DNA of 64,000 nucleotides, from positions 372,001 through 436,000 of the forward strand of contig NC_092672.1 of assembly GCF_964355755.1 (NCBI RefSeq). The letters are read 5' to 3'. The position numbers and the translations under genes are program-made. How positions within the stretch are numbered: position 1 is the first letter of the stretch; every line of letters begins with the position of its first letter. The notes under the pieces are model-generated. The model saw only the letters and a list, made by a program, of their open reading frames with translations, had not been told where the DNA came from and did not search any database. The DNA is from Antedon mediterranea. Its lineage: Eukaryota; Animalia; Echinodermata. Shown piece by piece: positions 29,192 through 58,006 of this stretch.

Positions 29192-29540
29192 TTATATATA
29201 CCATATAGTCCCTCCTGTGGGTATTGGGACAGCACCAACTTCATCATCTCCACTACTTTCGTCATGTGACGTATCTGGGAGTTCATCTTCAATAACCTTA
29301 CTAACTTGAGGTTTTTTACGTCGCTTAACTTTGCTTTCACCATTTGAGTTATTATTGCTACTGAACTCTGTAAACCCATCAAACCATTCCAAGTCATCCT
29401 CACGTCCGACCCAAGTCAGCTCTGTATTGTTCCTTGGATCTAATGTGTTTGCTCGTGAAGATGTTGGCGATGTGTTAGGACTTGCGAAGAGCAGCTTTTT
29501 CACGTTTGGTGAAACTTTCATTTTTATTACACGTTGGAAT
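29192..29540 (-). CDS. Candidate alternative terminal exon B of the RILPL gene
   Basis: Acceptor gatttaacag|A, phase 2 like exon A. Open frame FQRVIKMKVSPNVKKLLFASP...GGTIWYI* matches the ORF 29192..29521. Confidence 0.55.
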
Positions 29541-30549: not shown

Positions 30550-33500
30550 CTAAATGACTTTTCCTCTTGATTCCCTCCTTGATATTTTTTTTTCTTCTAC
30601 TGATTTTTTTCTTTCTTTCATCTGAATATTCTCCACTAGTGCAATACTTGAGGACGCTCGTTCTTCGGTAACATTGCCAATTTCTAAGGATGATTCCGGT
30701 GATGGCTCCGCAAAATGATCTTCTTTAATCTCATTTGCATCATCAATGTCAAAGTTCACAATCTCCCAATCACTTTGTGATCGTCGTGGAGTTGCAGGTG
30801 AGCTACCAGCCGCACTTAGTTCTGATAGCTCCCTCATACTATTGCTTGCATCAAGCATTCCATTAGTCTCTGATGCACCAGGTGTATTTGGTGTTGATCG
30901 TTGTGAAGGAGTTCTAGGTGATTTGGAAGACTTAGACTTTGGAGAAAAAATTAGTTGAAAACTGAAAAATAAAAGAAAATTAGCAAATATATATATATAT
31001 CTATACAACAGCACACAAATTCATGTAAAAAAAAGTGATGCAGTAATTGCATCATGTTATCATGATTAGGTGTTATCATAAGGTGTTAACATTATACTTA
31101 TCATTTTTATCAAGCAGTATCCATTCTTAAATAAAGTATAATTATCAAATATTGTTGTCTGTAAATGTGTTTTAATTATTTGATAAAGTAAAGCTACATT
31201 TACACTTTGTTAAAGTAGCTTAATTTGGTACAATTATGTTAATAAAATAACAAAATATGGACAAAGTGAAATCAAATGAAGTGCAAATTGAACATGTAGT
31301 GAATGAAATACAGACATTTAAATGTAAGTAAAGATGATACACAGTGTTCATGGTATCGGTGCAAATACAGTACTAATTTAATTGTGCAAAGTGTGGTACA
31401 GCTAGACAATTACATTTACTGTACTGTGTATGAAGATTTTAGAAGAATACATTCAGTACATCAATTTTGAAATATGATACCAAATTACATTTGTGTACAA
31501 ATTGTAGTTCACATTATATCAATATAATGTATACTGAAAAAAAAATGCAATTTCATGGATTGTGAGTGTAAGACTTCATATAATTAAGTATTCACTTACC
31601 AGTGTAAGTATAACTAAGCCAAAGCAAATATGTATATTTTGATATTAATTAATTCAGATGTATGCACTGTAAATATATTAATTAATTCAGATGTATGCAC
31701 TGTAAATATATTAATTAATTCAGATGTATGCACTGTAAATATATCTTGAATGAATGAATTGTTTTTTCTAATCTCTCAATTTGTAGTATTATTGTAAAAA
31801 AATTCCTAATTCCAAATAAGCTTCATCATCAACATTGATATATTTTTATGGTTATTACAATATCTAATTTATTTATTTTACTTAATACCATTGTGTGGAT
31901 AAAAACAACCATCAACAATTGGTGCTAATGTATATGTTTTTGTTTAATTTAAGAAGTGTAATAAGTAATGTGTAGTGGTTAACATGCTTGCCTTCCAATC
32001 CCAAGGCCCAGGGTTCAATCCTGACCTAGTGCCAGGGTTGTATCTGACAACTCTTTCAACTATATTCCTTCAGCCTCAAATGATACATTTAAAAATAGTT
32101 TATCTATCCCGTAATTGGCGAGTTACTTGCGTATAAAAAAAAGAAATAAAATAATAATATCCTTGTTCATGCTGTGAAACATTCATAACATACTAGGTTA
32201 TATAAACATGCTTAAATATGTATGCATACAACCTTAAAGCTTGGTTCCCACTAGAACGTAACGCAAGGACGTAAACGCAACGCAAGCGTTTTAACCAATG
32301 ACAAGCGAAGTTATAAAAAGTTAGCAATCACAAGCGAATAAGCCATCGCTTGTGATTGGTCAATTCATTTGCGTTGCGTTACGTCCTTGCGTTGCGTCGC
32401 TAGTGGGAACCACGCTTTCCTTATGAAGGGCTTAGAAGCAATATGGTCTCATTTGGAATTTAGGGACTTCAACTTAGCAATCAATTGTTACTAATTGATA
32501 TTTTCCAAATTAAAACACTATAAAAAAAGTATGAGGGAGCTTTGAACATATGAGGTCATAATGAAGGTGTACTATGCTCATATGGTGAGTTTGATTTAGA
32601 AATTGTATGATTCAATTCTATGCCTAGATGATGACATGCTCATTTAAGTTGACTTGATGACTTGAAGAAATGACATAAAGCATAATTTACATAAGTCCTA
32701 GATCAGTTCTTTGCAATTTGGTTTATCCAGGTAAGCTAGGCACGACATAGACTAGACCATTTACAAAGCCCTTCATATATCATTTTACTGTAAATAGAAT
32801 TCATTAGTATTTCCATGCTCAAACGAACCTTGAAAGACAATGGTAAATCAGCCAATCGTATTTGATGAAATCCCATCTAAAAATAGTACTACTGAATCTC
32901 ACCTGTATAACTAGTAAATCATAGCATGTATTCACACAACTTAATTAATGCCATGCAATGGTATTTACATAGGTCACATGATCACTTAATGTGCAGAGAG
33001 GCACCCAGGGTATTCAATCTTTTCCAACATCATTTATGTGTTCATTTTTTCTTTTGTTCACATGAAAAAAGAACCCATATAAAGACAATCAAGGTATCAA
33101 GTATCAATTAATGTTTTTATGGTGAAATAAATTGATACCTAATAATTGATTGTCTTTGTACACATGTTCATTGGTGCTGTGTCTACCAATTGGCAAGGAC
33201 AATGTTAAAACATTTTTACAGCAACTGTTTACATTGGATGAATCTAAAAATAATTAAAATTAATTATTAAATTACAAATTTACACCAATGGGATCATGTG
33301 ACAAATTAACACCATTTTTATAAATGATTATTGTCTGGATCTCCATTGAGATCCAGTGATATACCCACAACATTGCCATTTATTCAGTAATATGCCGTTT
33401 GATTTATATTATTGCCACTCAGATTAATACAGTTATACAATCTTGTAAACTAAAGTACATAGATATTGCTTCACATGATCAAAACATAAATATTACATTA

Positions 33501-36500
33501 ACATAAAACACAACATTACATCACAACTAAAAACCATACCTCAATAAACCTGTGAAATTACACCACCAATAATTAGGAAAATTATGTAATTTAATATCTA
33601 TTATATTTCAGTACTTTTATTACATTTTCCTTATTTTGAAATCTAAAATCATGTCCGTTGTAAGTTTGTAAGTAAGTTTTCATGTAAGTTTTGAAATACC
33701 AAAAGTGAATTCATGACACTAAATAAATTACTGGTGCCAAATGAAAAACCAATAATTTTCCACATTCCAATTTCAAAATTCTTACAAAACTACTAAGTTT
33801 GTCTATGTTCAATTTGTCCGGAAGTGGTAATTTTCTGGCCTCTAGCTTTACTCTGTGGAAAATACATTATATGTTTTTTTTAAATTGCTTTAAATTTATC
33901 ATTATTTATAATTTAAAAACAAATTTTGTAAGTTGTTTTCATACATTTCAAAATTTATATCAATTTTTTTAAATATTATATTACTATACAAAATATATTA
34001 TTATTTGAAAAAGAAATCAATTTACAGTAAAAAAAAATGTCCAATTTAATATTATTTACATACTTTCCATTAGTAATATCCAATTAATATTAAAACACAA
34101 TTAAAGTTTAGTTTTTAAACAAAATCAGAAAAACACATTAATAATAAAATCTTACAAATTTGAAACTTTAGAAACAGTTTCTGGTTCAAAAAGAGCTCGT
34201 CGAATTCTGAAGGTAAAGAATAACATGAACAGTAAACAAATAGATCAACATATGGTATGACACATTCCGAAGATAAAGCTCTGTCTACACTATCAAACTA
34301 ATTGTGATGTGCCCATATGGACATCATGATGTCATATCACTACCATATTTAAGTATATCACTACCATATTTGGGCACATCACACTTTTCTTGTAGACAGA
34401 GCTTAAAAGCATTCTAATAATTATCCAATATATTAACAACATTTTGATACAATTACAGTGTTTGTTACACATAGCTTACAGTACAAATACATACTTAACA
34501 TTATAATACACCAGTCAACACATAACTACATGCAATTCTGTATTAGTATCTTCAGTAATTATATTAACATACAGTATGGTATTTATTACAATATGACATT
34601 TTTAATTGAAATATATCTAATATTACATAACCCATGTCATTTAACACCTTTTCATAACATTTTTTTTAAAACACAAAATGTATTATATTTCATTAAACCG
34701 TTTAAATAATTAAAAAGTCTTTAACAATAACGTCAAACTTTTAAAAATGTTTTCCTAGTATTTTACCCATGCTACAGAGATGATAATGTGGATAGGAAGG
34801 TAGTAAGTACTAACAGTGTGATTCTAGTATAGTATTATGGGTACATAATGTCAACAATAAAATAATGTAAAATATGATTTATTTATGTCATAAATGAATG
34901 ATATGACACCAGTGATTGATACAATATAAAAAAGGTCAAAGTTGAGAAATTATTTTATAATAATGTCTTAATATTAATAGATGAGTTGTAATTTAATAAA
35001 TATAAATTAAGCTAAAAGCAGCTTAAGTATGTACTTACAATTTCCTGATACCTGAATCTTCAGTTTTTTTAGGTGGGGTTACTTGTTCTGTAGAAAGTAT
35101 AAAGGAATCCTCAACTGGCCTGTGAAAACAACAAATACATTACAATAAACTATCCATTCATTGTTGCTTTACTCAAGTTAAGTTGTACTTAATATTGTTG
35201 CTTTACTCAAGTTAAGTTGTACTTAATTGTTGCTTTACTCAAGTTAAGTTGTACTTAATTGTTGCTTTACTCAAGTTAAGTTGTACTTAATTGTTGCTTT
35301 ACTCAAGTTAAGTTGTACTTAATTGTTGTTTTACTCAAGTTAAGTTGTACTTAATTGTTGCTTTACTCAAGTTAAGTTGTACTTAATTTCATTCAATTCA
35401 TCTTTTATTTCGGAAAAAATAATAAAGTACAAACTTTTCCATAGCTCAAGAACAAATTAGTGTCAACATTATTATAAATATAAATGAAATATATATATAA
35501 ATAAACCGACACCAAAGTCACTTAAGTACTGAACTAGATTAGAAAACTTAATTGATTATTGAAAATGCAATTTAATGAGGTTTTAAATTAGGGAGGGAGT
35601 TTTCTGATAGGATTTTTAAATAACTACATCTATTAAATAAATTAAAGGACGATTGTGCTAAGAAAGGTGTTGTGATGATAAAAATGTTAATGATAATACA
35701 TTGGTAGTATAATAGTGTTCTATATTGTACAAAAGTAATATCTATTTCACTTCAGTCAAACATCAATATTGGATACAAAACATAAATATCAATTTTTTAA
35801 AGCAATTTCATGGGTTTAATTGATAAATTAGCATCATTTTGTCTACATGTATGTAGAGGTTGAATGACATTTTCACTTTATTAATGACATAGTGTGCTAG
35901 ATAAAATAACTGTTATTGGAAATATTTAACCCAAGGATGAAGTCAATTGTGTAGTGCAATGTTAAACACTTGAATCTCATGTCACTCAATACACTTACAT
36001 AAATAGCAATTAATATACTGGTTGTTGAGTATACTATATAGAGTACTATATTTCAACATGGAGAAATTAGTCTTAAACCAATTCCACCAAGATTTAAACA
36101 CTTCTTGTTTAAACAAGGAAAAAGGAAACCAACTCCTCAACATTACTTAGAATATTGCATTATTTTATTATTATCTGTAATTTACTTTATGGTTTTACAT
36201 TTTTTTTTTTTTTTAGAATTTTTGGTTTTGAGTGACTGGTACAATGTTAGTTCAATTTGGTTTGGAACAGATTGCTCAGCTAAAATTATAAATTCTATTG
36301 AAGAAAATAAACATTACATGCGTAAAATAATCCTTTATTTCAAATAAAAACATAAGAAGGTAACAAACATCCTAGGGAGTAGTAGTAAGCACAGCTGAGT
36401 TAGAAGGTAACAAACATCCTAGGGAGTAGTAGTAAGCACAGCTGAGTTAGAAGGTAACAAACATCCTAGGGAGTAGTAGTAAGCACAGCTGAGTTAGAAG

Positions 36501-39500
36501 GTAACAAACATCCTAGGGAGTAGTAGTAAGCACAGCTGAGTTAGAAGGTAACAAACATCCTAGGGAGTAGTAGTAAGCACAGCTGAGTTAGAAGGTAACA
36601 AACATCCTAGGGAGTAGTAGTAAGCACAGCTGAGTTAGAAGGTAACAAACATCCTAGGGAGTAGTAGTAAGCACAGCTGAGTTAGAAGGTAACAAACATC
36701 CTAGGGAGTAGTAGTAAGCACAGCTGAGTTAGAAGGTAACAAACATCCTAGGGAGTAGTAGTAAGCACAGCTGAGTTAGAAGGTAACAAACATCCTAGGG
36801 AGTAGTAGTAAGCACAGCTGAGTTAGAAGGTAACAAACATCCTAGGGAGTAGTAGTAAGCACAGCTGAGTTAGAAGGTAACAAACATCCTAGGGAGTAGT
36901 AGTAAGCACAGCTGAGTTAGAAGGTAACAAACATCCTAGGGAGTAGTAGTAAGCACAGCTGAGTTAGAAGGTAACAAACATCCCAGGGAGTAGTAGTAAG
37001 CACAGCTGAGTTAGAAGGTAACAAACATCCTAGGGAGTAGTAGTAAGCACAGCTGAGTTAGAAGGTAACAAACATCCCAGGGAGTAGTAGTAAGCACAGC
37101 TGAGTTAGAAAATAATGGCGGCTAAACCAATATTCAACATGCTTTTCAACAATTAGCTATTTAATCCTCAATTCATTAAGGGATTAAGCTTAATCCTTAA
37201 TTAACAAGAACACCACCATGTTTTATAAAAGCAACAGCTTGTACCTTTTCTATGTAGGTACAGTATGGTTACTTACCTGTAAGACTCCAACTCATCTTCC
37301 AACTCAAGTGTTCTAAACTTAAGTTCATCTCTTTCTTGTAGCACCGTCTGCAGTTCCTTTAGCGTGAATCGTGGACGGTTAGGGTCACGGAGGTCAATCA
37401 CAATCTTGCCATCTGGTTGGTCAAATTCGACCCCATTAGACTCCTATTAAAGAAATAATACATTTCAAGATGTTGGTCATGACAGATTCTAAAATCCACT
37501 AAAACCTTAAAATTGTATTACTGTATATCCTCTGGTATAATTTCACTCCCTTAGAATACAAAATTTGGCTGGGGGGGGGGGGGGGGGGGTGGATTATACC
37601 CGGAGAATCCCTGATTCATGAAAAAACATGTATTTCTTGTACAAACTCATCTGAACTGGCTGGAGAGGTCTACATCAAGACCAAAAGTCAATACTGGGAC
37701 TATCTCATGGATATGCCGATATACCCGAGGATATACAGTAATTAAAAACAGCAACCACAAGTTATTGTCAACTGTCACAAACCTCAGGTACAGAAGTGTG
37801 TTGGACAGTCTCTATTTCAATACCATGCCGCCCCATATCTTGTGCTAAGGCTTCTAATTTGGTCTGCATTTCTGTCTTCTCTTTTATGACACTCTTCGCC
37901 TGCGAGGCTAAAAGTTCACTTTTCCGACGTAATTGCTGGTTAACTTTTGCAAGACGTGCAACTTGTTCTTGGAGCTAATAAATAATTTTTAAAAACATAG
38001 GAAATAAGTATACAGTATTAATATCAGTAATAAAATTACTTGGCATGTCATTGTAAATATAAACTTAAGATATGGTATTACATTTTATACCCCCATGTTT
38101 TTGTTCCTTTCACATCGTCTAGAAAAACTATGGAGTTTGCACACACATTTGTTTTAATGTATTGGCAAACACATTAAATATATTGTTTTACAAATTTAAA
38201 TTGATCTTCTAATGAAAAATTATAATATAAAAATAAAAATTTGATTTCTTTAGGTACACACTGCCAAGGATTGTCAAGAGTGTTCAAAGCTATTATCCTC
38301 CAGAAAGGTGACAATTCTGATGCACTACAAAAAATCAGTATTGGAAGTCTTTGACATGAAGTGGAATTGAGATAGACTTTTGGTCTGATAGAGCCAGCAG
38401 TTTAAAAATACTTTTTAAATGATCAGTATTATTATTTATTTATTATTATTGAACATTTTTGGAAAAAAAATGTGGACATCTGAGCGGATTTGAACCACGG
38501 ACCCAGAATCCAAACCACAAGGCTACTGTATATTATAAACACACTTCACTATAATTCATGAGACTATTAGTAATATTACTGTACCATACATTCAAAAGTT
38601 ACTGGTGGTACTAAATTGATCTTCTAATAAAATATTCAAACTTATAATTATATAAGTTTGATTTCTTTAGGTACACACTGCCAAGGATTGCCAAGAGTGC
38701 CCCCAGAAATGTGACAATTCTGATGCTCTACAAAAAAATCATTCTTGGAAGTCTTTGAGATGGAGTGGAGTGGAGTTGAGATGGAGTGGAGTTCAGTTGA
38801 GTTAGGAGTTCAGTTGAGTTAGGAGTTCAGTTGAGTTAGCAGTGGAGTTGAAATAGACTTTTGGTTTGATAGAGCTCTGAGAGCAGTTTAAGAGTGCTAT
38901 ATAATAAATGCTCAGTATTATTACTTATTATTATTGAACATTTTGGGAGAAAAAATCTGGACATCTGACCGGATTTGAGATAGGTAGCTGAGAATCCAAA
39001 CCACGAAGCTACTGTATATTATTTTAAACACACTTCACTATAATTCCACTATAATTCATGAGACTATTATTAGTATTATTAGCAAACATTCAAAAGTTAC
39101 TGGTGGTACTCAGTCATACAATTTTTATATTTGTTGGCTTATCACTGATATTATTTTAATGTCATTGTTTGGTGATATAACTCTGGCTTAGCGTTTAACA
39201 TATATTTGCAATCTGTAAATGATAAGGACTCATGACTAACACACTTGTGATCAAAAGTAGGTCCATACATTATTGCGTCAACTGATAATGGACCTATTAG
39301 ATACAGTAACTCTTCCAATTACAAACTTGGTTAATAATTAAATTTAAATTTCAAACAGACAAATTTTATTTTGTTCAAAATGAGCACAAACGATAACTAC
39401 ACAGAGTATACACTAATAATTCAACAAAACAATGTAGAATATCAGCATAATCAATTTTAATACGTGTTTGCTACAATAATTATAGTAGCAACAAAAAGTA

Positions 39501-42500
39501 TAGTAGCAAAATATATACTGTATATTTTGTTAATATACTGATTGCAATATTTGAATAAGAAGTATAAATTGTATTTAAACTAATTAAGTATGTTCTAGCA
39601 CAAACACTTTTTGCACAAACACTTTATTTTTCAGATTTTCTGTAAAGTTATAGGAAGGTCATTAGGACAGTGCAGACATCCCTCAAGGATAGAAACATAT
39701 TCATAATTCTATATATAGACACAATAATAAAGAAAGCAATAGAATTGCTTAATGAGTAATATGACGTCATGTATCAACTAAGGGGCACAATGATTCCTGT
39801 CAATGTCACACACAATGTCATGTCACACAATGTCAAACTTTGAAAACACTTGTTAATTTTCTGATATTAGTAAGTCATAAATCATTGACTAATATTTGTA
39901 TTACCATAGTTGATATAATATTCTTCAGGGTGTTGGAAAGTAAATTTGACAAATTACAGAAATTGTATGACATAAACTAAACTAAATGTTATTGCTTAAA
40001 TTTGTAGTTTCATTTGGTTTTGAATCACTGTTAGTGAGTATTTTAGAAAATATGGTAAAGTCAAAACTTCAGAAACGTGCGAGTATTTGAATGTATCAGC
40101 AACAATTAACTTTGGAAGATAACATGTTTAAAGTCGAGACTTTACAGAATGATTCAAGTGTTTGAAGGATTTAGAACTATTATTAATATTGTGAAGTGAA
40201 ATGTCTACAGTACATAGTATCAAAGCAGACTAGTGAAAACCCTGACTCATGATTCCGATTATCATTAAGAAAGCAAATTTGTATAAATACAATAAGTATT
40301 TGTTGTTCTGCTACTGTATGTGAATTTAAAAAATTACATTTATAAATATTTTAGCTTGTACAATACATTTTTAACTCTTGTAATAATCATAATGACACGA
40401 GTGTGTATGCATGCCATCCATTTTGTGATGGTCCAAATTTGGGGGTGGGGATACACGCTTAAGTACAGACTTACTGCATCAACATCTTGTAACCTTTGTT
40501 GTATTTCATTGTCTTTTGGGGGTGGGGTTACACGCTTAAGTACAGATTTACTGCATCAGCATCTTGTAACCTTTGTTGTATTTCATTGTCTTTTGGGGAT
40601 GGGGATACACGCTTAAGTACAGACTTACTGCATCAGCATCTTGTAACCTTTGTTGTATTTCATTGTCTTTTGCTCGAAGTTGGTCTCTCTGTCGATCTAC
40701 AGCTTCTTTTAATTTTGTTATCATCTGAATTTCTTGACGTTCAGCCACTTAAAAAATACAAACATTTATTTACATTGCAATCTAAAAAAAAAAACAATTT
40801 CTAAAACCAATGAAATTTAATGAATAATTTCTGGAATGAAAAATACTTTTAATCTTTATGAGATGCAATTACTTTTGATATTGTTCATTAATTTCATCAT
40901 TTCACATCACCTAGCAATCTCCAGAGTTTACTAACACCGCATCACACAAAATGCCGATGTTGAACTCCTGAGTTTGCTTGGCAATATGACTATTCATAAT
41001 CAAGAACTATTTGGCAGATATGATTATTTATCAATTTAGAATTACATTAAACACAAAAAAAGTATTTAAAAATTGATAATTAATTCTTTGATGTGAAAAA
41101 CGTGTAGAAATCTTTTTCAAATTATCTATTTTGTTGACACATGAGTTAACCCTTCAACTTGAATAATAACAAACACTTCCGGATGGAAAATGCCTTCAGG
41201 AAGCCATTAACCAGTGGGTTCACTTCCTTTAATTGTCATAAGAAATCTTGTCACTTACAAGACGATGAAATAGATCTGTCATTTCAGAGATCATGTTTAT
41301 TAATGAGTCTGAGAAAAGTGGACAGAATCCGACCCGACTCAAGATCCTATATCTTTCTTGGATCCTGCCTTCTTCCACTGTGAAAATTGGGACTGGACCG
41401 TTTTAGAGGTGTTTACCACCTGTTGGTCCAGATCCTTCACTAACTGAGTTAGTGAGAAGTCGAATAAATAAAAAAAAAAAAATTCCCTAAGATTTATTGT
41501 TATTTAAATGTTATTTTTTATTTATTCCGTTATTATTGATTCAATCTTAAAAGGAAGTAAATAAATGTTATTTTGAATTTAATTGAAAAAGGAGATAAAG
41601 GGGAAAGATTAGAAAATTATACTGGACAGTTTGGGATTTCAAACCAAGAAATAGGTTAAACTTTTTTTTAAATTACAAAATGAAAATGAAACTACCGACA
41701 ATTTATGAAAACAAATTTGTTTATAATGTTGCACAATGAACTGTTGTTCCTTAATGTACTATTGATATAGGCATTATTTTTTCATCATGTATTATTATAG
41801 TACATAAAGGAACCATTGTTTGATCAAATTGATATTAACAATGCATTAACATGACTGTGAAATCTAGAAATCGTTGATTTGAAAAGTTGATAAAGTAGAA
41901 AAAATAAAAATGTACTGTATGGCAGGTCAAAGTATAGATTGCATTCATCACATGACAACTCAAAATAGAAAGTTCAGATTGACGTATTTGATATTGATTA
42001 TCAAGTATGTTGACATTTAAAATGGGTAGTTGTATTCAACTGCACTGGGATAGCTATTCAAATTCTGGTATCCCACTACTATAGCTAGGATGGCAACTCT
42101 TTACAGAGTATTCAACATCACACATTTTGTGCACTTATGAAGACTTCTACTCTAATCACAGTATCCAACATTACACATCTTGTGCACTTATCAAGACTTC
42201 TACTCCAATCACAGTATTCAACATCACACATCTTGAGCACTTATCAAGAGTTCTACTCCAATCACAGTGATTATCTGTGCCATTTTCTTTAGTTTTTATT
42301 GAGATAGTACCAGGGTATTATTTGGTATTAAAGACAAGTTCCACTTTAAAAAAAATACATACAGGCTGGGGTTCTGTTGATAGAGATGTTCCAACCCCAC
42401 CCCTTCCCTCATTTATAATACATACAGGCTGGGGTTCTGTTGATAGAGATGTTCCAACCCCACCCCTTCTCTCATTTATAATACATACAGGCTGGGGTTC

Positions 42501-45500
42501 TGTTGATACCCCACCCCTTCTCTCATTTATAAAGCTCTGTTTACATTATCAAACTACTGTAGTTTGACAAACAAAAGGTGAGATATGCCCAAATATGGTA
42601 GTGATATGACATCATTGTGTCCAATGGGCACATCACATTTTTTTGTCACATAAAGTTTGATAGTGTGGACAGAGCTTTAGACCATTGCCCACAGGAACAT
42701 TGGACTCATTTATTCATTTTTAATAATTTAATAAAAAAAATGATCTACAATTTGTTAAGGTTTGTCATCACTTAATACTTAAATCTATTTTGTAAAACAC
42801 AATGCAGAAAGAGACAATGAACAAAGACATTGCTGCATGCATGAATGACATGAAGATCCACAACCTATGCTGACAAAAGAAATTGAAAAAGAATAGTTTT
42901 TAAAAGGATCCTGGCAACAAAAGATTATCAGACAGTATCAGAATTAGCTGTTTAGTGTTAAAAGGATTGCAAGCAATGTACATACATACAAACTCAAAAC
43001 ATTATCCTAATCAAAAATTTAAAATTGAAAAAAAAAATTAATTGATAATTATCTATTGATATTTTAATATTGTAAATTCAACAATGTTTACTTTGTTAAA
43101 ATAAATTTGAATTGATTTGAAATTAAAATTAGTTTTTATTGGCTGCCTCCCATGTTTAACAGGACAACAAACAAATTCAAGAATAATATGAAACCTCAAT
43201 TCAATATTGTTTAATTTTTGTTTACAGTACCAGTTTAGAGAGTCATTAATAGTTAAAATGATTTAATTATAATTTGAGTTTGTATCAGTTACAGATAGCA
43301 AAAGAAGATAGAAGATTTAAACATTCAAAAGACATGCATGGAATACCTGATGTTGGCCAAGCCATGATAACTGATGGGATAAAAAAAATATCAATTTATA
43401 TAAAAAATACTTAACATGCTATAATATGGTAGTACAGTTTACATACTGTAGTAATTAAGTATTTGAAGGAAAGTAAGCAAGCACTTATTTTAAAGTTTAA
43501 GTAATTACTTTATTTGATTCAGGGTAGTTTTTACTAAAGCTCTGTCTACACTATCATTATCAAACTTTATGTGATAACAAAATGTGATGTGCCCTTATAT
43601 AGACATGATGATGTCATATCACTACTGTATTTGGGAATATCAATACCACATTTGGGCACATCACATTTTTTTGTCAAACTAGTTTGAGTGTAGATAGAGC
43701 TTTAAGTTACTATAAAAATGATGCATTTGGTAACAGGATGATTCACTGTTCAAGTAAATAATACATTTTATTTCAATAAACTTAAAATGTAAGCAAGACA
43801 ATTTGGAATTGTCAATTTCCTCATCATCACATCGGGGACTACAGTAACTTTCTTTAGAAGTCAGTAAACCTCTAGAGTAGGTGTGCCTCAACTCTAAAGC
43901 CATGACATTTTATCTCTAATTAATTGTCATTAATGAGGTCATTCGTAAACACAAAAACCCTTTTCTCACTTCCTCATGACAATAAAAGGAAATGTTTTTT
44001 CTATAATGTAATTTTATATTAAAGTGATTTAAAATGATGATATAAAAACAAAACAATAATTTTGGGTAATACTAATAACAACAAAATGATTACGGTAAGT
44101 ACTTAAAAAGGTGTAAATATAATCCTAAAAACTAAATACACTGACTGTATTTATCAATGAAATGTCAACATGAAAAAGTGCTGACTAAAAAAGACAAGTT
44201 TAACTATATAATTTAATAACCAATTTCAAACTTATAATGTACTGTAAAAGTAACCATACTATCAATTGAGTTTTTCAATTTGTGCTTACATAAACTGACA
44301 CTGACAGAAAGTAAATATATTAGGCATGACTTAATGCTTATAAAAACTATGGAATGTTACAGTTGGTTTCCCCCTTTGAATTCTTAAGTAAAGCTTGCAA
44401 GATTCCTGCCTTTCACACGATTTAAGTTTAAGCCAAAGCATTTGCATAACACAACATAACTCCTTCATAGATTAAAAGGAATAGATCCATTTGCATACGA
44501 TTACTCAGTCTTTCCAAGATTAAAAAGAACACCAATTTTTAGATTTGCTTATTCTTGGTCTGGTATAAATAACTTTTTATATTTCAAAATCTCTCAAATT
44601 AAAACAATAAAATATTTTCTTCATAAGGAAAACTGGTAGGATTATTCATAACTTTGTTAAAAACCTTTTTATATTTCAAAATCTCTCAAATTACAGTAGG
44701 TACAGTAGGCTAATTTAACATGAGCATGAATTTAGTAAACATTTAAAATTACTTCCAGCCACTCTTTTCCCCATAAGGGAAACGGTGGTGATTATTTATA
44801 TCTTTGTTATACCCAGGGGTAATAGGACACTAGGCTTTTTTTATTCATTAGACCCAAAATAAAAACATCATCCTACCACCACCACCACCCACATAATATA
44901 AAATAAGGGTCACATGTAGGGTCACAGGTAGATCAGACCCAGTGACTTCCTTTCCCTCCCACTTCTTTCCTTACAACGTGACATGTCTGGGTACTGATTC
45001 TTGCGATAACATAATTCCTTAATACGCAATTTTATTAATATTACAGAATAACAACTTCAAAATAATTGAGGATTGCAGTCATTAATTTTCGCTTTTATTT
45101 TTATTTGTGATGTCATCTTAGTGATACAATACAGTGGACCCATTTGTTTCATATTTTAAAAAATGGTTGAAATATAGAAAATCTTAATGGCTTGATATAA
45201 AAATGATTAATATTAATATAGACTCTTAGTATTATGCTTAATTTTAATTCAATTTACTTACATTTTTCTCGGTTTGCAATGCCATCCCTAGTTTGCAGTA
45301 TACCTTTAATTGTTTCATTTTCTGACTGTATTTCTGTTATCTCTTCTAGCAGTTCTTTACTTTCTTCTCTCCATGCTTGCTCAACTTTATTTACTTCCTG
45401 TTTAAAAGAATAAGATAAGACTGATGCTTAGCTAAGATAAGAACGATATTTTGCTCCTATCACTTGTACCATTGTGATGCTTACAGTACTTGCTGATTTT

Positions 45501-47558
45501 AAACTTAGAAAGAAAAATTGTTTTAATAAAATAAATACTAGTGTTATTCACTATGTTCATCAACTGTGTTCATCAACTGAAGCATTTCTTTAGGTATTAA
45601 TAGTTGCAATGTTTTCAAATACCAGGCAATACTTTTTAAAAGGAAATCCCTTGTACAGTAATTAAACAATGTGTGTGATAAATTTAAAGGGCTAGTTTGT
45701 GATAATTTAAAGGGCTAGTTTGTGATAATTTAAAGGGCTAGTTTGTGATAATTTAAAGGGCTAGTTTGTGATAATTTAAAGGGCTAGTTTGTGATAATTT
45801 AAAGGGCTAGTTTGTGATAATTTAAAGGGCTAGTTTGTGATAATTTAAAGGGCTAGTTTGTGATAATTTAAAGGGCTAGTTTGTGATAATTTAAAGGGCT
45901 AGTTTGTGATAATTTAAAGGGCTAGTTTGTGATAATTTAAAGGGCTAGTTTGTGATAATTTAAAGGGCTAGTTTGTGATAATTTAAAGGGCTAGTTTGTG
46001 ATAATTTAAAGGGCTAGTTTGTGATAATTTAAAGGGCTAGTTTGTGATAATTTAAAGGGCTAGTTTGTGATAATTTTGTAAAATGTTAAACCGACACATT
46101 GTTGATAGCTAAGTACAAAGTGGCTGTGTGTAGTTTACTTATCAGCGCTCAAATAATTAATCATAATTAAAATTTTAACAAATAGTTTCTCTAAATAATC
46201 TGTCCAATTAGTGAATTTAAAAAAAAACAAACAGTGGAATTAAAGCAGACTAAGAGTACTATTAGATAAGACTGAGCGATTCAATCTTATAATTTCACAA
46301 AATAATTTCACTTTGTTTTGTTGACCTTATTTTAAGCAGATTGAAATGATATAGACATACAATTCAACTGAGATTTATTAATTGAAAATGGCCAAGAATA
46401 TCACATTTTTTATTTTTAAATTAAAGAACGTCAGGGTTTGTTCTCCCAATGGCTCACAACAAAGTTTGATGAAATTATCACACTTTATTTGACACTGTTT
46501 AAAAGTTGGATGACGTCATTTAGAAACTGATTTCTGCTGAGTTGTTATGGTGGATTTTTAACACTTTCAAATTAGTTAAAAATGAAACATTTTGATTGCA
46601 AACATTAAAACATTCATGTTTCTTTCATTAATAATAATTTTGTTGAATTCAATTATTGATTTTATCAAAACAAAAATATGTACATTAATTTCATAAGGTA
46701 TTCTTTAAGCTTGAGCGTGGTAGATGTTATAATCTCCTTTGTATTCTGTACTTTAATTGGAAAATGAAAGTGTGACTACAGATATTCTAATCAAGACAGT
46801 ACCAGGCACTCTGCATTTTGTGTTCAGGTACAATATCCACTTTAATACCTAAATCGTTTAAATGTATTATTTATTTTAAATCATAGTCTAAATCATTCTG
46901 TCATAGAGTATAGTAATGTATTTCTCTATATAGTGCATACAGTATGTGACCTAGTTTAAAGTTGTAATAATTGTACATGGGCATATTGAAGTTTGCAATC
47001 TTTCTGATATTACTGTATGTTCTATTGTGGAGACATTCTCCTGACAAATGGATGAAAATAAAATTAAACAAAATAAAAACATTGCATATGACTAGCCTAA
47101 TATAAAGATCCTAATATAAAGATCTTAATATATAGTATATTATATACTACAGTAGTAGTACTCTAGACAACTAGGTACCTATGACGTATGATGTAAATAA
47201 CTAAAAAAAGTATATGTATTAATTATTAAACACTATGAAATTTATGGAATATTATGAACACCAACATTCAAGAACGACAAAATGAAACAAAAATGCTGAC
47301 CGCTTTCAACCTTGCTATTTCCGCAGTTTTCTTTGCATTTTCGTTCATTAAAACACTTATTCTTTCCTTGCCTTCCTCGGACTCCCCACTACGTGTTTCC
47401 AAAGTTCGTACACACGACTCCAGCTGCTCCAAAACACGGATGATCAGCGGCATCAAATCGGTAACAGCCTCGCTACCATAGTCTTCGATTTGTTTCTTTA
47501 GTTCTTCGCCGATATCAGCTGCAATTCCATGTACATCTACTACTGTAAGTTCCGACAT
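30550..47558 (-). CDS. RILPL1: RILP-like protein (RILPL1/2 family; RH1 and RH2 domains), model ending in terminal exon A
   Basis: Core exons 47558-47301, 45397-45262, 40747-40629, 37974-37783, 37443-37277, 35119-35039, then terminal exon 30961-30550. RH1: LTVVDVHGIAADIGEELKKQIEDYGSEAVTDLMPLIIRVLEQLE. RH2: DLRDPNRPRFTLKELQTVLQERDELK, followed by DSGIRKL. The family is clear; exact vertebrate orthology (RILPL1, RILPL2 or RILP) is unresolved. Confidence 0.88.
31600..34206 (-). CDS. Cluster of candidate cassette exons/microexons of RILPL (51, 67, 10, 8 and 14 nt)
   Basis: 34206-34156 (cag|..|gtaaga, phase 2>2); 33852-33786 (cag|..|gtaaga, 2>0); 33549-33540 (cag|GTTTATTGAG|gtatgg, 2>0); 32910-32903 (tag|TTATACAG|gtgaga, 0>2); 31613-31600 (tag|TTATACTTACACTG|gtaagt, 0>2). 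Confidence 0.5.
31643..31744. repeat. ~33-bp tandem repeat, 3 copies
   Basis: ATATTAATTAATTCAGATGTATGCACTGTAAAT x3. Confidence 0.92.
31968..32160 (+). mobile_element. tRNA-Gly-derived SINE-like element
   Basis: Head TGTAGTGGTTAACATGCTTGCCTTCCAA nearly matches the tRNA-Gly at 58 kb. B box GGTTCAATCC, no acceptor stem, unrelated body and A-rich tail. Confidence 0.7.
32236..32418. mobile_element. MITE with long imperfect TIRs
   Basis: AAAGCTTGGTTCCCACTAG..ACGCAAGGACGTAA..CGCAACGCAA pairs with TTGCGTTGCGTTACGTCCTTGCGT..CTAGTGGGAACCACGCTTT. Confidence 0.8.
34276..34404. mobile_element. AAGCTCTGTCTACAC MITE family, copy 1
   Basis: TIR AAGCTCTGTCTACA..TGTAGACAGAGCTT; core GTGATGTGCCC/CACTACCATATTTGGG. 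Confidence 0.8.
35160..35388. repeat. 32-bp minisatellite TTGTTGCTTTACTCAAGTTAAGTTGTACTTAA, 7 copies
   Basis: Read directly. Confidence 0.95.
36355..37110. repeat. 47-bp minisatellite AGAAGGTAACAAACATCCTAGGGAGTAGTAGTAAGCACAGCTGAGTT, 16 near-identical copies
   Basis: Read directly; there are no spacers between units. Confidence 0.97.
37521..37738. mobile_element. TA-flanked pogo/Tigger-like MITE
   Basis: TA|CTGTATATCCTCTGGTATA ... TATACCCGAGGATATACAG|TA. Confidence 0.75.
38198..39110. repeat. Diverged tandem duplication (~415 and ~498 bp copies)
   Basis: Both copies start AAATTGATCTTCTAAT and end CATTCAAAAGTTACTGGTGGTACT. The second copy has an expanded GGAGT-type microsatellite. Confidence 0.85.
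40438..40671. repeat. 77-bp triplication spanning the RILPL exon 3 splice donor
   Basis: Minus strand GACAATGAAATACAACAAAGGTTACAAGATGCTGATGCA|gtaagt.. occurs three times at a 77-bp period. Confidence 0.95.
42105..42530. repeat. Two adjacent short arrays (~54 bp x3 and ~63 bp x3)
   Basis: AGTATTCAACATCACACAT..GCACTTAT.. x3 and ATACATACAGGCTGGGGTTCTGTTGATA.. x3. Confidence 0.85.
42532..42677. mobile_element. AAGCTCTGTCTACAC MITE family, copy 2
   Basis: Same TIRs and core, flanked by TA on both sides. Confidence 0.8.
43347..43370 (-). CDS. Candidate 24-nt frame-preserving microexon in RILPL intron 2
   Basis: tttatcccatcag|TTATCATGGCTTGGCCAACATCAG|gtattc, phase 1>1 matching the flanking exons. 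TGCATG begins 9 nt into the downstream intron. Confidence 0.45.
43537..43702. mobile_element. AAGCTCTGTCTACAC MITE family, copy 3
   Basis: Same TIRs and core, TA-flanked. Confidence 0.8.
45674..46075. repeat. 23-bp minisatellite TGTGATAATTTAAAGGGCTAGTT, ~17 copies
   Basis: Read directly. Confidence 0.97.
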
Positions 47559-48094
47559 GATTATCGTAATTACTTTGCAATATTATTGTTTGTTTGATTC
47601 AACATTCTAGAGTTGATTGACGATTACTCACTTTACCGTGTCGTCTGATGTGTGTGTGTGGGACATTCCTCTCACACTTTTGAAAGAAAGGTCAACCAGC
47701 AAGCTCGGGTTTGTTTTGATTGCCATTTACGAATATCACATGACAGGATCAGGTGGCATCAGCTGCCAAAAATTGGCTATATTAAACACGTGAAAATATA
47801 TCAAAATAAAGTATAAACTTTTAAACATTGTTTCTAAACATTTTAAAGTAAAATTGTAGAGCAAGTTAATAATAATAAATAATACGGAATTAATTTATGA
47901 CGGTAAAAAAAGTGGCCAATCACATTTGGCGATTGTAATTGATTGTGCATTGACCAATCAAATTTGATCTAAGGTTTAAAGGGCATTGCGCTTTTTTTTC
48001 GAACTTTGTGTTGTTATACGTAAACATTTTTCAAACCAGTACGTAGGCCTAGTTGTACTTGTATTTACGTTGGATTTACTGTCTTTTTACAAAT
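47559..48094. promoter_or_regulatory. Probable bidirectional promoter shared by RILPL and KMT5A
   Basis: The divergent ATGs are separated by 536 bp. Motifs: CCAAT boxes near 47916 and 47954, E-boxes TCACATGAC (47736) and CACGTG (~47787), and CHR-like TTTAAA/TTCGAA. Confidence 0.6.
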
Positions 48095-50863
48095 ATGGGA
48101 AAACGTAACCGCAACAGTAAGTTATATGATAATTGTAATACTTGTGAAACAGTGAAAAGATGTAGCTTAGTTAGGTTTAGTAGGCTAGCCCCGGCTCTGT
48201 CTGATATGCCTAAAAAACACAAAGCATCCAGCAGTGTAGTCGGGGCTCATTGCGACGTTGGTCGTAAAGACTTAGTAAAGGGCCTAGCTCAGTAGTAGGG
48301 GCCTTCACAGAATCCGCCTTAGCTAACAGTAACACCATTCATCGAGACTATACTTTTTTATAACTTGTTTTATTATAATTATTAATAAAACTTGTAATAA
48401 TATCAATAAAAACAAGTTTATTCTGTGTTTAATTTAATAAATTATTTTAAATTTTACAGGTAAAGCTGCCAAGAAGCAAGCAAATGATGCGACGGCTTCT
48501 CCTTCTGGGCCACTCAAGAAATTTTCTCCAAATAGAGAAAGACCAGAAAAAAATGTAAAATTATGTTCACCTTCTGTGTGCAAGAAAAAACAAATTGTCT
48601 CTTATTTAATGAATAATGTACTAACCAATGTTGGATAAATATACAAATGGCTTAAATCATAAAACAAAGAGTTGATAATTTAGTTTTATAGAAAACACTA
48701 CATTTTATAATTTTAATAAATTATAACTTTATATATTTCATAGATTGATGTCCAAATAAAGTCTCCAGCTTCAAGAAAGATAACAGAGTTTTTAAGTCCT
48801 TCAAAGGCAGCAGAACACCCTCCAAAAGAAGGGACTCAGACTTCAACCACAGAATATTGCCACCCCATTGAAGCAATTCCAGCTGGTACGATGAGATGCT
48901 TTTCCTACATACGAGTGCTGATGTTGCCTCAATTTGTTGAAATTATAAACTTGAGTTGGATATCTTGTTGATGACTTTATTTAATATTATTTGAATACTA
49001 TTAATGTGAAATAATGCATTAAAAACATATTCAGCTATTGTGGCTTTCTGTAAGTGAATTGATGACATAAATTAATCACATTTTAATTTCAGGTCTTCTA
49101 ACCCCTGAGAAAACCCCAACAAAGGACAACTTGACAAAAGCCCAAGCACAACCAGAAAAGAAGAAAAACAAGAAGAAACCCTTAGTGAAGGAGCTGTTCG
49201 TTCCATCAACCAATGCCGCTCAAGGTACCGATACAACGCTGAAAAGTGTAGAGGATTGTGCACCGAGTAATTGCCAATTTATGGGGGCTACAAAATCTCC
49301 AGAAAAAAAAAAGCCTTCAAAACCAAGGTATTATTTGCAATCCTCGAACATGTTTTAGAGTTTAGCCTCATAAGGTTTCATTACAAACTTATTTCTGAAA
49401 ATATAAATATTATGGATTCTTTGTTTATGCATTTCAGTAAAAAGAAAGAAGAGAAGCCGCAAACAACAACACTTACCAACTACTTTCCAATTAGGAGAAG
49501 CAACAGAAAGAGCAAACGACAGCTTGCGGTAGGTGTTCTTTATCAAATATTTAATTACATCAAGCTCTGTCTACACTATCAAACTAGTTTGATAAAAAAG
49601 TGTGCTTTCCCCAAATATGGTAGTAATATGATATGTCTATATATGGGCACATCACATTTTTTGTCACATAAAATTTGATAGTGTAGACTGACCTTTACAT
49701 TACCTGTGTATTTTATGAATCAAATTCCTTACTTTTAAACATTTATTCTACAAAATTTTTACCTTTGCGTCTTACTTCATATAGATTGAGAAAAAGCAAA
49801 GAATTGAGGAAGCTATTCTGGAGAAGAAAGAAGAAGGCATTGAGGTAAGGTTTACAAGATAAACATAGGTATAACAATATGTAACATTACACAGACTACA
49901 TGGATCTGGAACCAACTTCCTCGATTCACCCGTTACACTCCATTCTCTTTCCAATTCCATTTTCCCTGAACACTCACCTATTTCGATAGTTATTCTTGTC
50001 ATGTGGCGCTGTGAGACTCCGGTAAAGAATGCATTATAAATGTTTGATTTTTTCTATCCCCCAAAGGTTAAAGACATTGTAGGCAAAGGTAGAGGAGTAG
50101 TAGCCACAAGACACTTCAGTAAAGGTGACTTCATTGTAGAGTATGCTGGCAATTTAATTGATAGAAAAGAAGCAAAACTGAAGGAAGCTGAATACTTACA
50201 AGACACTAGCATAGGATGTTATATGTACTACTTCATCTACAAGAACAAACAATACTGGTAAATAATATCAATACTAATTCATTGTACATAAATATAGCAA
50301 CAAATGTATAAAGCCCTGTTTACACTATCAAACTTTGTGACAAAAAGATGGTAGTGATTTGACATAATGTCCATATCACATTTAGTTTGATTAGTGTAGA
50401 CAGAACTTAAGAAACAAAACACGAAACAATGGATGTTGTACACATTACAATGCACAGTGCATTATGTTTAAATATTGGTGTGTGAACCCCTCCCTATCTT
50501 TACACCACATAGAATACTCCCAAGAAAATAACCTGCTATCTATTTACAGTACTTTACATCTAAGTATTATGTTAATATAAGAATAATGTACTAAGCCACT
50601 CTTAAGTGTGCACTTAATACACCAACTAATTAAACCTGTTTATTTTTTTTAGTGTGGATGCAACAGCAGAAAGTGGCCGTCTTGGCAGACTAATCAATCA
50701 TAGTAAACACGGCAACTGTTGTACAAAACTAACATCAATTGACGACACACCCTACCTCATCTTGTGTGCCTCAAAAGACATAGAAATTGACCAAGAGCTG
50801 CTCTATGATTATGGTGATAGGGATAAGGAATCACTAGAAGCCCACCCATGGTTAGCACTATAG
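48095..50863 (+). CDS. KMT5A: Histone H4K20 monomethyltransferase KMT5A/SETD8/PR-Set7
   Basis: Exons 48095-48116, 48460-48554, 48744-48885, 49093-49327, 49438-49528, 49785-49844, 50067-50257, 50653-50863. PIP-degron-like LTNYFPIRRS. SET domain GKGRGVVA..GDFIVEYAG..GCYMYYF..YCVDATAESGRLGRLINHS..ELLYDYGDR..AHPWL. Confidence 0.95.
49562..49695. mobile_element. AAGCTCTGTCTACAC MITE family, copy 4
   Basis: Same TIRs and core, in a KMT5A intron. Confidence 0.75.
50311..50408. mobile_element. AAGCTCTGTCTACAC MITE family, copy 5 (internally deleted)
   Basis: AAGCCCTGTTTACACTATCAAAC ... TAGTGTAGACAGAACTT. Confidence 0.7.
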
Positions 50864-55429: not shown

Positions 55430-55860
55430 CCTAAAAGAAAAGGGAAACAATGAATGAAAAAAATCATATGATCAATAAGCTACACAGTATTGAATTTAAT
55501 TTAAATACTAGAATTTAGATAAGATTAGATATATCATCTATCATTGTTGAATTGAATGAGGTAAGTTATTTCAATTGTTAAAGTTTTAGACATTAAAGAA
55601 ACCAAATAGAAAAGAAATTGTGCCAAGGAAGGCAAATTCAAACTACTGTAGCCTAGTAGGCCTGTAAACTGTGAAAGATAATCCAGCATAAAATGCGGAT
55701 TCTACTCCATTCTCCATGCACATTCAACCAGTGGAAGAGGTCGACTACTCCACCATCATTCTAGCCTATCTTAATCTTAGTTTAGTATCTAGTGTTTTCT
55801 GATAATACTGTAGTAATAATAATTTAAATTTAATTAATTGGAAATTGTAGAGTTTAAATA

Positions 55861-56102
55861 CCTGAACCATCGGCTAGGTTTTTACTATCTTACGTCAACA
55901 ATTGTCCCCACCCTCTGCTGCTCATTAAAATACTGTACCACCAATCTGATTTTGTGTTTATATGACACGGTTCACTAAACACATCGTTTCGTTATTTACA
56001 ATTACCCGTGATCCTGTTGATTGATGACACTTTTTGTGGTTTTCATTTCTGATTAAGAAATTTATAAAGGTTAAAAATAAATTCACGATTTTGTAATTAA
56101 AC
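55861..56102. promoter_or_regulatory. Probable bidirectional promoter/first-exon region shared by NUDT6 and CDK2AP1
   Basis: A minus-strand donor (cag|gtattt at 55861) and the plus-strand CDK2AP1 ATG at 56103 lie within about 240 bp. Confidence 0.5.
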
Positions 56103-57378: not shown

Positions 57379-58006
57379 CACCTCAACATGCTAACACAAT
57401 ACCTAATTTAAGAAATAAACTAAAGAATATTCCTCCCCTCCCCCATTACATAACAACTAAGAGGCCCTAGAGCTTGAGCAGCCCCAACACAACTACCCAG
57501 CGTTGGAGGGCCCATTATGAGTGCTAACTTTTCCACCTGCATTATGCCACTACTGGCTATGGTGTTTCCTTATTCTAATAAATGTATAACCTTGTTTATT
57601 TACTATATTTCTTGGTACTGAATCAGAATATTTAACAATTGTTAGCATTTACGTATACTGCATCATGTTTGTAATAAAAATAATTGTTGAGTTAGTAAAA
57701 GAATTCTTCTTGTGTCATTACGGAGGTGGGGAGGAGTGTAATACAATACAGATAATTAAAAAAAAGATATTTTACTTTGGAATACCAGATGTAGCTAAAA
57801 GAAATGTTAATTGGAAAAACACTACTATAACTTACAGTCTGCCACAAATAGTTTGATATATACAGTAGTAGTACCATACTATTAAAGTTGTTGTCAAGCA
57901 AAATAAAAACATATTCTTTGAATCCATAAAATAATTGGCTTGACCATAATTCATTAAAAAAATACTATAGGATAAGTAATAGTAAAATACTAGCTAATTT
58001 ACAGAA

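What the first reader, a model, noticed from the sequence alone, without database searches (positions are those of the whole stretch)
31600..35119. Phase-interlocked microexon switchboard right after the RILPL RH2 domain
Seen: after the exon ending DSGIRKL (phase 2) there are five short segments with consensus splice sites. One is a 51-nt 2>2 cassette (IRRALFEPETVSKVSN). Two are 2>0 exons (67 nt, VKLEARKLPLPDKLNIDKLSSF; 10 nt, FIE). Two are 0>2 microexons that both begin TTA TAC (8 nt, LY+; 14 nt, LYLH+). None of the last four preserves frame alone. One 2>0 exon plus one 0>2 exon restores phase 2, whereas 67+10 gives an immediate TGA. The 10+8 route yields GIRKLFIELY(R/S), which resembles the SGIKRLFSFF motif of vertebrate RILPL1. 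TGC motifs precede the 8- and 14-nt acceptors, and TGCATG lies upstream of the 8-nt exon. Known: UGC near the 3' splice site is the SRRM3/4 (eMIC) microexon signature and UGCAUG is the RBFOX site. Inference: two pairs of mutually exclusive, obligately coupled exons diversify the region next to the Rab-binding domain. Gene predictors would likely miss this.
Basis: partly seen in the sequence, partly recalled or inferred. Interest (0 to 1): 0.78.

Follow-up and report, generated by a model that had tools for sequence, protein, structure and literature searches.

The report
Feather-star RILPL1 tail-switching splice hotspot
A feather star's RILPL1 trafficking-adaptor gene has several alternative endings at one splice junction, two added exons of which are already in public gene models, while three much smaller candidate exons remain unproven and are likely not locked into obligatory pairs.

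Summary
The five segments, their lengths, phases and motifs are as described. The gene is RILPL1 of the crinoid Antedon mediterranea. The 51-nt exon is in public RefSeq models and has a homologue in Anneissia. The 67-nt exon is also annotated, but joined straight to the last exon out of frame, or left unspliced. In the one run shown to be RNA, 2 junction contigs reach the first last exon: the skip-all join and an unlisted donor at 32829; neither uses the 8-, 10- or 14-nt segments, but contigs drop rare forms. Those three stay plausible (post hoc shuffle P 0.002-0.013 strict, 0.31 loose), and annotation also misses a conserved 24-nt microexon elsewhere in this gene. Obligate coupling has no enforcer: every out-of-frame stop lies in a last exon or within 26 nt of the last junction, and no steric or RNA-pairing constraint was found. 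Oyster, mantis shrimp and vertebrate RILPL1 also diverge right after this motif. Best reading: an old tail-switching hotspot, not an interlock. The scan noted a similar tail-switch microexon in DCLK2 on other DNA.

The parts
47301..47558 (-). RILPL1 exon 1, coding part (RH1 domain)
   Evidence: PF09744, E 2.8e-20; agrees with P0001
45262..45397 (-). exon 2
43347..43370 (-).
   Evidence: splicing in Antedon inferred from conservation
40629..40747 (-). exon 3
37783..37974 (-). exon 4
37277..37443 (-). exon 5 (RH2 coiled coil)
   Evidence: PF11461, E 1e-06
35039..35119 (-). exon 6, ends in phase 2 inside the GIRK-L/F motif; read-through into the intron stops at once after GIRKL
34156..34206 (-). 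51-nt in-frame cassette exon, real
   Evidence: RefSeq X1, X4, X5; 57-nt homologue in Anneissia, 9 of 16 residues identical
33786..33852 (-). 67-nt frameshifting exon, annotated; no homologue among 5 Anneissia isoforms
   Evidence: RefSeq X4 (unspliced downstream) and X5 (direct join to 30961)
33540..33549 (-). 10-nt candidate microexon (phase 2 to 0), unproven; weak donor
   Evidence: no transcript support
32952..32957 (-). TGCATG, 47 nt upstream of the 8-nt segment; not above chance
32903..32910 (-). 8-nt candidate microexon (phase 0 to 2), unproven; strong donor, TGC at -16
   Evidence: no transcript support
   Evidence: 828-nt contig
31600..31613 (-). 14-nt candidate microexon (phase 0 to 2), unproven; strongest sites of the three; gives a stop if joined to the 29540 exon after 67 or 10
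   Evidence: no transcript support
30550..30961 (-). last exon A, coding part; disordered tail with a W-E-I-V motif after Ser/Asp
   Evidence: RefSeq X1, X2; RNA contigs
   Evidence: RefSeq X3

Best explanation
The intron after exon 6 cuts a conserved motif that is predicted to form a short amphipathic helix, and splicing there gives RILPL1 different endings (two last exons, a 51-nt spacer exon and a 67-nt frameshifting exon), which likely works as a tail switch, with the 8-, 10- and 14-nt segments being unproven extra options that would not need to be paired. Shown: the exons and phases; skip-all splicing in RNA; annotation of the 51-nt, 67-nt and second last exon; conservation of the 51-nt exon and both last exons in a second crinoid. 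Inferred: RH1 and the RH2 coiled coil stay constant; in-frame routes keep a long disordered tail (tail A carries a W-E-x-V/L motif shared across echinoderms that resembles an LC3-interacting region, consensus recalled), while out-of-frame routes end the protein 3 to 21 codons into a last exon, escape junction-dependent decay, and give short-tailed adaptors like those of molluscs and arthropods.
For: Five Antedon RefSeq isoforms differ only after GIRK; Anneissia has the same cassette and both last exons. Run X1 holds the 35039-to-30961 junction (60-nt contig, depth 14.3). RefSeq X5 joins the 67-nt exon directly to 30961; its junction 9-mer scores in the top 0.5% of 6600 intronic 9-mers against the family motif, so it does not need a partner microexon to rebuild the motif. 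No out-of-frame stop lies more than 26 nt before the last junction. Isoforms of one species diverge right after the motif in Saccostrea (4 isoforms, 3 endings) and Oratosquilla (3 isoforms, 3 endings), with the L/F swap expected of a phase-2 junction; vertebrate records show two endings and one 8-residue insert. 27 of 59 non-crinoid homologues with the motif end within 30 residues of it. AlphaFold places short helices at residues 316-323 and 333-339 of isoform X1, at low confidence.
Against: The 8- and 14-nt segments have unusually strong donors, TGC, long AG-free zones, the same first six bases and the same phase, more than shuffles give under strict (post hoc) thresholds, and the 10+8 product fits the motif better than shuffled pairs (P 0.009). 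The 67-nt exon followed by LY scores slightly higher (9.2) than the direct join (7.4) and in the same register as 10+8. RefSeq misses a conserved 24-nt microexon in this same gene, so its silence on 8-14 nt exons is weak; the X5 junction could be an alignment that collapsed a microexon (I could not see its read support). Intron positions in other species were not checked at DNA level. Helix and tail functions are untested. Some short homologue tails may be truncated gene models.
Confidence: 0.6

Rival explanations
1. Frame-restoring pairs: in some cells, likely neurons, the 67- or 10-nt exon is co-included with the 8- or 14-nt exon, which rebuilds the helix motif and keeps the long tail.
For: Phases interlock exactly. 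Strict shuffle tests P 0.002-0.013; the 10+8 product P 0.009. The last seven residues of the 67-nt exon score in the top 0.6% of 7686 intronic 7-mers against motif positions 1-7, and LY in the top 4% of 251 post-acceptor dipeptides for positions 8-9. TGC and AG-free zones of 27 and 51 nt fit the eMIC code as stated in PMC8797185 (passage). Adjacent coordinated exon pairs that keep frame only together are documented in mammals (PMC13247083, passage).
Against: 0 of 5 RefSeq isoforms and 0 of 2 junction contigs contain them. RefSeq X5 shows the 67-nt exon unpaired. No decay, steric or pairing mechanism to enforce coupling or exclusion. Flanks of the 8- and 14-nt segments are not more alike than random intron (p 0.19), nor those of 67 and 10 (p 0.57). 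A contig in X1 runs unspliced through the 10- and 8-nt segments. A 33-nt tandem array starts 29 nt upstream of the 14-nt acceptor. All thresholds were post hoc.
Confidence: 0.27
2. The 8-, 10- and 14-nt segments are chance pseudo-exons and the 67-nt exon and 32829 donor are tolerated, lineage-specific splicing noise next to the real alternatives (51-nt cassette, two last exons).
For: Loose thresholds give 4 candidates against 2.7 expected (P 0.31); intron 2 holds 5 such candidates in 4514 nt. The top-scoring microexon-sized candidate of the whole gene is an unrelated 11-nt segment in intron 2. No 67-nt homologue among 5 Anneissia isoforms. X1 uses a cryptic-looking donor and shows intronic cover.
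Against: No other RILPL intron (0 in 5 control stretches) and 1 site in 16339 nt of the antisense strand reach the strict donor threshold that both the 8- and 14-nt segments pass. The 67-nt exon is open for 22 codons in the entering frame and ends in a motif-like peptide. This rival overlaps the best explanation as far as the three microexons go; it differs in denying function to the short-tail forms.
Confidence: 0.13

Closest known systems
RefSeq isoforms X1-X5 of RILP-like protein 1, Antedon mediterranea (XP_071944980.1 to XP_071944984.1) and Anneissia japonica (XP_033106932.1, -933, -934, -935, -937)
   Same: Same gene; already hold the 51-nt and 67-nt exons, skip-all and the second last exon.
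   Different: None of the 5 Antedon models has the 8-, 10-, 14- or 24-nt segments or a product that needs the 32829 donor.
Non-triplet splicing with alternative C-terminal length (PMC13247117; passages read)
   Same: A non-3n exon near the gene end moves the stop, shortening the protein without decay.
   Different: Here it sits on a junction that cuts a conserved motif, alongside two last exons; expression and decay resistance are not measured here.
eMIC (SRRM3/4, Srrm234)-dependent microexons (PMC8797185; passages read)
   Same: 8- and 14-nt segments have UGC near a weak 3' site and AG-free zones of 27 and 51 nt.
   Different: No long UC-rich tract and no CUAAY branch point before them; not frame-preserving alone; splicing and neural bias not shown.
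Adjacent coordinated exon pairs that keep frame only together (PMC13247083; passages read)
   Different: Coordination there was measured by long reads; here there is no read for any pair, and the layout is two by two.
Vertebrate RILPL1 C-terminal tail (bioRxiv 10.1101/2025.08.19.670962; passages read)
   Same: A flexible tail after RH2 carries a short partner-binding motif (TMEM55B binds residues 391-403), so tail choice can change partners.
   Different: The crinoid tails show no evident likeness to that vertebrate tail; no partner is known for them.

Membership tests
RILP/RILPL family | N-terminal RH1 domain | tested here: met
   PF09744, E 1e-18 on P0001
RILP/RILPL family | RH2 domain | tested here: met
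   PF11461, 29.6 bits over cut-off 24.8, profile positions 1-33 of 69
Non-triplet alternative C-terminal splicing | Alternative exon whose length is not a multiple of three | tested here: met
   67-nt exon in RefSeq X5, absent from X1-X3
Non-triplet alternative C-terminal splicing | New stop lies in the last exon or close to the last junction | tested here: met
   -26 to +63 nt over all routes
Non-triplet alternative C-terminal splicing | Both isoforms substantially expressed and resistant to decay | not testable with these tools
   Only contigs of one RNA run; no raw reads, no decay inhibition
eMIC-dependent neural microexons | Exon of 3-27 nt that is spliced in | tested here: inconclusive
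   Sizes fit; 0 of 2 junction contigs, 0 of 5 RefSeq isoforms, both blind to rare forms
eMIC-dependent neural microexons | UGC close to the 3' splice site and long AG exclusion zone | tested here: met
   8-nt: TGC -16, zone 27; 14-nt: TGC -13, zone 51; the 10-nt segment has no TGC
eMIC-dependent neural microexons | Long UC-rich pyrimidine tract and CUAAY branch point | tested here: not met
   Only TTAAT at -35 to -39 before the 8- and 14-nt segments; CTAAT at -27 only before the 10-nt one
eMIC-dependent neural microexons | Neuron-enriched inclusion that depends on Srrm234/SRRM3/4 | not testable with these tools
   No tissue data
Mutually exclusive exons | Exactly one of the pair in mature mRNA | tested here: not met
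   Skip-all junction in RNA and RefSeq X1, X2, X3 contain neither member of either pair
Mutually exclusive exons | Enforcing mechanism: steric clash, competing RNA pairing or decay of double inclusion | tested here: not met
   Introns of 236 and 1289 nt; no distinctive pairing among the 25 longest of 110 inverted repeats shown; stops too near the last junction
Mutually exclusive exons | Members are duplicates of one exon | tested here: inconclusive
   8- and 14-nt share TAG-TTATAC but flank similarity p 0.19; 67 against 10 p 0.57

The most novel reading that the evidence does not exclude
A two-by-two microexon code: neurons of crinoids build the conserved post-RH2 helix of RILPL1 from interchangeable halves, the front from exon 6 plus the 10-nt exon or from the end of the 67-nt exon, the back (LY) from an 8- or 14-nt eMIC-type microexon, while leaving the back half out flips the protein to a short tail that lacks the LC3-type motif. 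It would sit on a junction that bilaterians have used for alternative RILPL1 endings since their common ancestor.
Probability: 0.25. Interest if true: 0.62.

Novelty: new member of a known kind. Interest (0 to 1): 0.36.

Why it matters
RILPL1 links Rab GTPases to dynein-type motors (general knowledge; RH2-phospho-Rab binding). If one junction is the family's standing site for swapping tails, the uncharacterised helix and the tails behind it are worth a functional test in any model animal. I found no paper holding both 'rilpl' and 'microexon' and none in the listing whose title or abstract start deals with this junction. If the microexon pairs are real they would be a compact case of frame-coupled microexons in an echinoderm, a group for which my two searches (listings only) showed no dedicated microexon study. 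As it stands, most of what is proven is already in RefSeq.

Tried and rejected
No whole genome is held, so no paralogue or SRRM search, and no second crinoid genome for the decisive conservation test. Run search: no listed holder is on record as RNA; X1 is treated as RNA only because it holds GT-AG junction contigs. First laying: the joint table was filled by repeat elements (15 rows shown, 392 not), so no splice joint could be read; absence of cover or joints there is no evidence. X7 laid nothing on the last exon (filter possible). X2 and X3 aligned only inside the last exon and did not show their upstream exon. Search for short protein fragments with the junction peptides: 3 candidates, none scored. 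Metagenome scan: 189 pattern matches, none confirmed. Search for an Antedon homologue of the 11-residue end of Anneissia isoform X5: best score 15 with a stop, rejected. RBFOX site as evidence: rejected, 4 TGCATG in the locus, 14 on this strand. Summed splice-site score as a discriminator: rejected, the conserved 24-nt exon ranks only 10th, the 14-nt 2nd, the 8-nt 16th, the 10-nt outside the top 30. Docking/selector pairing: none convincing. Papers on RILP with LIR motif, RILPL1 and LC3 together: 0. AlphaFold model: pLDDT under 50 for most residues after 294, used only as a weak hint. No complex prediction was run.
Full report
Observation. The segments lie on the minus strand at the stated places. 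Exon 6 (35119-35039) ends on two bases of a codon. The five segments are 51 nt (34206-34156), 67 nt (33852-33786), 10 nt (33549-33540), 8 nt (32910-32903) and 14 nt (31613-31600). Translating all 32 subsets into the exon at 30961 gives a full-length protein for 10: skip-all, 51 alone, and one of 67/10 with one of 8/14, with or without 51; 67+10 stops inside the 10-nt segment. TGC is at -16 and -13 of the 8- and 14-nt acceptors and TGCATG at 32957. The description is right.

The gene. A search with the last exon returned a 100% match named RILP-like protein 1 isoform X2 of Antedon mediterranea, and its Anneissia japonica homologue. Pfam finds RH1 in exon 1 and RH2 in exon 5. Five Antedon RefSeq isoforms were recovered: X1 has the 51-nt exon; X2 skips all; X3 joins exon 6 to a second last exon at 29540; X4 has 51+67 and reads on into the intron; X5 has 51+67 joined straight to 30961, out of frame, ending ten residues later. 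None of the 5 holds the 10-, 8- or 14-nt peptides. Five Anneissia isoforms show a 57-nt homologue of the 51-nt exon (9 of 16 aligned residues identical), both last exons (72 of 133 and 91 of 115 identical; core 279 of 317), one short unrelated ending, and no homologue of the 67-nt exon. I could not see the read support behind these models.

RNA. The run search listed 10 runs, none on record as RNA. Laid on 30550-30986, run X1 gave 3 records: the exon body starting exactly at 30961, a 60-nt contig whose loose end is the end of exon 6 (depth 14.3), and an 828-nt contig (depth 7.82) whose loose end is the window sequence at 32831-32860 with one mismatch. That contig runs unbroken from 33639 to 32829, through the 10- and 8-nt segments, then splices from an AAG/GT donor to 30961. 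So 0 of 2 junction contigs use a microexon. Contigs drop rare variants, this is one run of unknown tissue, and the tool warns that depth is not a level, so this is weak evidence against. X7 laid nothing there; X2 and X3 did not reach the junction.

Chance. I built donor and acceptor models from 16 donors and 19 acceptors of the window (RILPL sites plus sites of two neighbouring genes placed by eye). By summed score the 14-nt segment ranks 2nd, the 8-nt 16th and the 10-nt outside the top 30 among 3-30 nt candidates in the gene's introns. Against 1000 dinucleotide shuffles of the intron: loose thresholds 4 observed, 2.7 expected, P 0.31; medium donor 2 against 0.63, P 0.135; very strong donor 2 against 0.17, P 0.013; with TGC 2 against 0.04, P 0.002. 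No other RILPL intron and one antisense site in 16339 nt reach the strict donor level. The best frame-restoring pair fits the homologues' motif as well as the 10+8 product in 0.9% of shuffles. These thresholds were set after seeing the sites. TGC precedes 45 of 294 intronic YAG sites and TGCATG is common, so neither counts alone. A useful control: intron 2 holds a 24-nt in-frame segment (43370-43347) whose peptide matches a cassette in 4 of 5 Anneissia isoforms yet is in 0 of 5 Antedon models; annotation of this gene does miss microexons. My estimate: about even odds that at least one of the 8- and 14-nt segments is a real exon, somewhat less for the 10-nt.

The motif. Among 163 non-crinoid proteins held, 59 had the RH2 anchor and the motif by my pattern; the rest were fragments, divergent or missed by the pattern. 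Against 42 distinct 9-mers, skip-all scores 22.0, the second last exon 18.9, 10+8 17.2, the 51-nt route 13.9 plus a second copy of 12.2 at its 3' junction; the end of the 67-nt exon gives a second copy of 9.2 with LY and 7.4 with the direct out-of-frame join (top 0.24% and 0.5% of 6600 intronic 9-mers). So the register match that favours pairing is real, but the unpaired join does nearly as well. AlphaFold puts short helices on both copies in isoform X1, at pLDDT near or under 50, in an otherwise disordered tail. In Patiria and Aethina the Pfam RH2 profile reaches to the start of this motif.

An old hotspot. Isoforms of one species diverge directly after the motif in Saccostrea echinata (4 isoforms, 3 endings, one stopping at GIRKL) and Oratosquilla oratoria (3 isoforms, 3 endings), with the L/F swap that a phase-2 junction gives; vertebrate records of different species show two endings and, in Gracilinanus, an 8-residue insert. 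27 of 59 homologues end within 30 residues of the motif, 5 of them within one residue; some may be cut models. That the intron is in the same place is inferred from these protein ends, not checked on DNA. Long echinoderm tails share W-E-I/F-V/L after acidic or Ser/Thr residues (Antedon, Anneissia, Patiria, Acanthaster, Lytechinus, Logan P0020); its likeness to an LC3-interacting region is from memory and untested.

Is coupling enforced? Over all routes into either last exon, out-of-frame stops begin between 26 nt before and 63 nt after the last junction; by the usual 50-nt rule (recalled) junction-dependent decay would not act. The introns within the pairs are 236 and 1289 nt, too long for steric exclusion. 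No distinctive RNA pairing was seen among the 25 longest of 110 inverted repeats. Flanks of the supposed pairs are not more alike than random intron (p 0.19 and 0.57). Transcripts with neither member exist, and X5 has the 67-nt exon alone. The 14-nt segment also makes a stop when joined to the second last exon. Obligate coupling and mutual exclusion are therefore not supported; preferential co-inclusion in one tissue remains possible.

Mechanism. Best reading (0.6): a tail switch. The constant RH1-coiled coil-RH2 adaptor is finished in one of several ways at a junction that cuts a likely helical binding motif: tail A, tail B, a spacer that repeats the motif, or a frameshift or read-through that leaves a stub. 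Rival (0.27): frame-restoring microexon pairs, probably neural. Rival (0.13): everything beyond the 51-nt exon and the two last exons is noise.

Known systems. Non-triplet splicing that changes C-terminal length is described as a common class (PMC13247117, passages). The eMIC code lists UGC, long AG-free zones, UC-rich tracts and CUAAY branch points (PMC8797185, passages); the 8- and 14-nt segments meet the first two only. Adjacent exon pairs that keep frame only together are documented in mammals (PMC13247083, passages). The vertebrate RILPL1 tail binds TMEM55B through its last residues (10.1101/2025.08.19.670962, passages). Searches for 'rilpl' with 'microexon' and RILP/LIR/RILPL1/LC3 found no paper; some searches were seen as listings only, apart from the four papers named. 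The library lacks most subscription papers, and no supplements were read; splicing databases or supplements could list RILPL1 events.

Verdict. Observation confirmed; interpretation partly supported. What is proven is largely annotated already; what is new (three microexons and their pairing) is unproven. Interest 0.36; the novel case has probability 0.25 and would deserve 0.62.

Noticed in passing
window 43347-43370 (-): Conserved 24-nt in-frame microexon in RILPL1 intron 2, homologous to an Anneissia cassette, absent from all 5 Antedon RefSeq isoforms, with TGCATG 9 nt downstream.
   Followed up: partly
window 29192-29540 (-): Second last exon, more conserved between crinoids (91 of 115) than the first; acidic stretch with W/F residues and a conserved hydrophobic end that look like adaptor-binding motifs (recalled, untested).
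   Followed up: partly
window 32829 (-): Donor used in run X1 at the end of an unspliced stretch of at least 811 nt; with the 8-nt segment's acceptor it would bound an 82-nt exon that contains stops in the frames tested. The contig lacks 13 bases net against the window; their place was not shown.
   Followed up: partly
window 40438-40672: 77-nt tandem repeat (3.1 copies) that duplicates the 3' end and donor of RILPL1 exon 3.
   Followed up: no
window 31642-31744: Perfect 33-nt tandem array ending 29 nt upstream of the 14-nt candidate's acceptor.
   Followed up: no
window 32235-32418 and 34274-34393: Two short, very high-copy elements with inverted ends (MITE-like by appearance) in the same intron; depth 10^5-10^6 in all four runs. 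The second element recurs many times in the window.
   Followed up: no
window 44290-44300 (-): 11-nt segment with the best summed splice-site score of all microexon-sized candidates in the gene; no support looked for.
   Followed up: no
window 47560-48200: RILPL1 and a SET-domain-like gene on the plus strand (KMT5A-like, named from memory of the translation) start head to head within about 650 nt.
   Followed up: no
window 52900-64000 (-), 56600-57050 (+), 58020-58092 (-), 12813-14307 (+), 3558-8037 (+): Neighbours recognised by eye from translations, names recalled and unchecked: PRP19-like, NUDT6-like, CDK2AP-like, a tRNA-like gene, RAD51C-like and an adhesion-GPCR-like gene.
   Followed up: no
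P0005 (Anneissia isoform X5): Ends in an 11-residue peptide after the cassette that has no counterpart found in the Antedon intron.
   Followed up: partly
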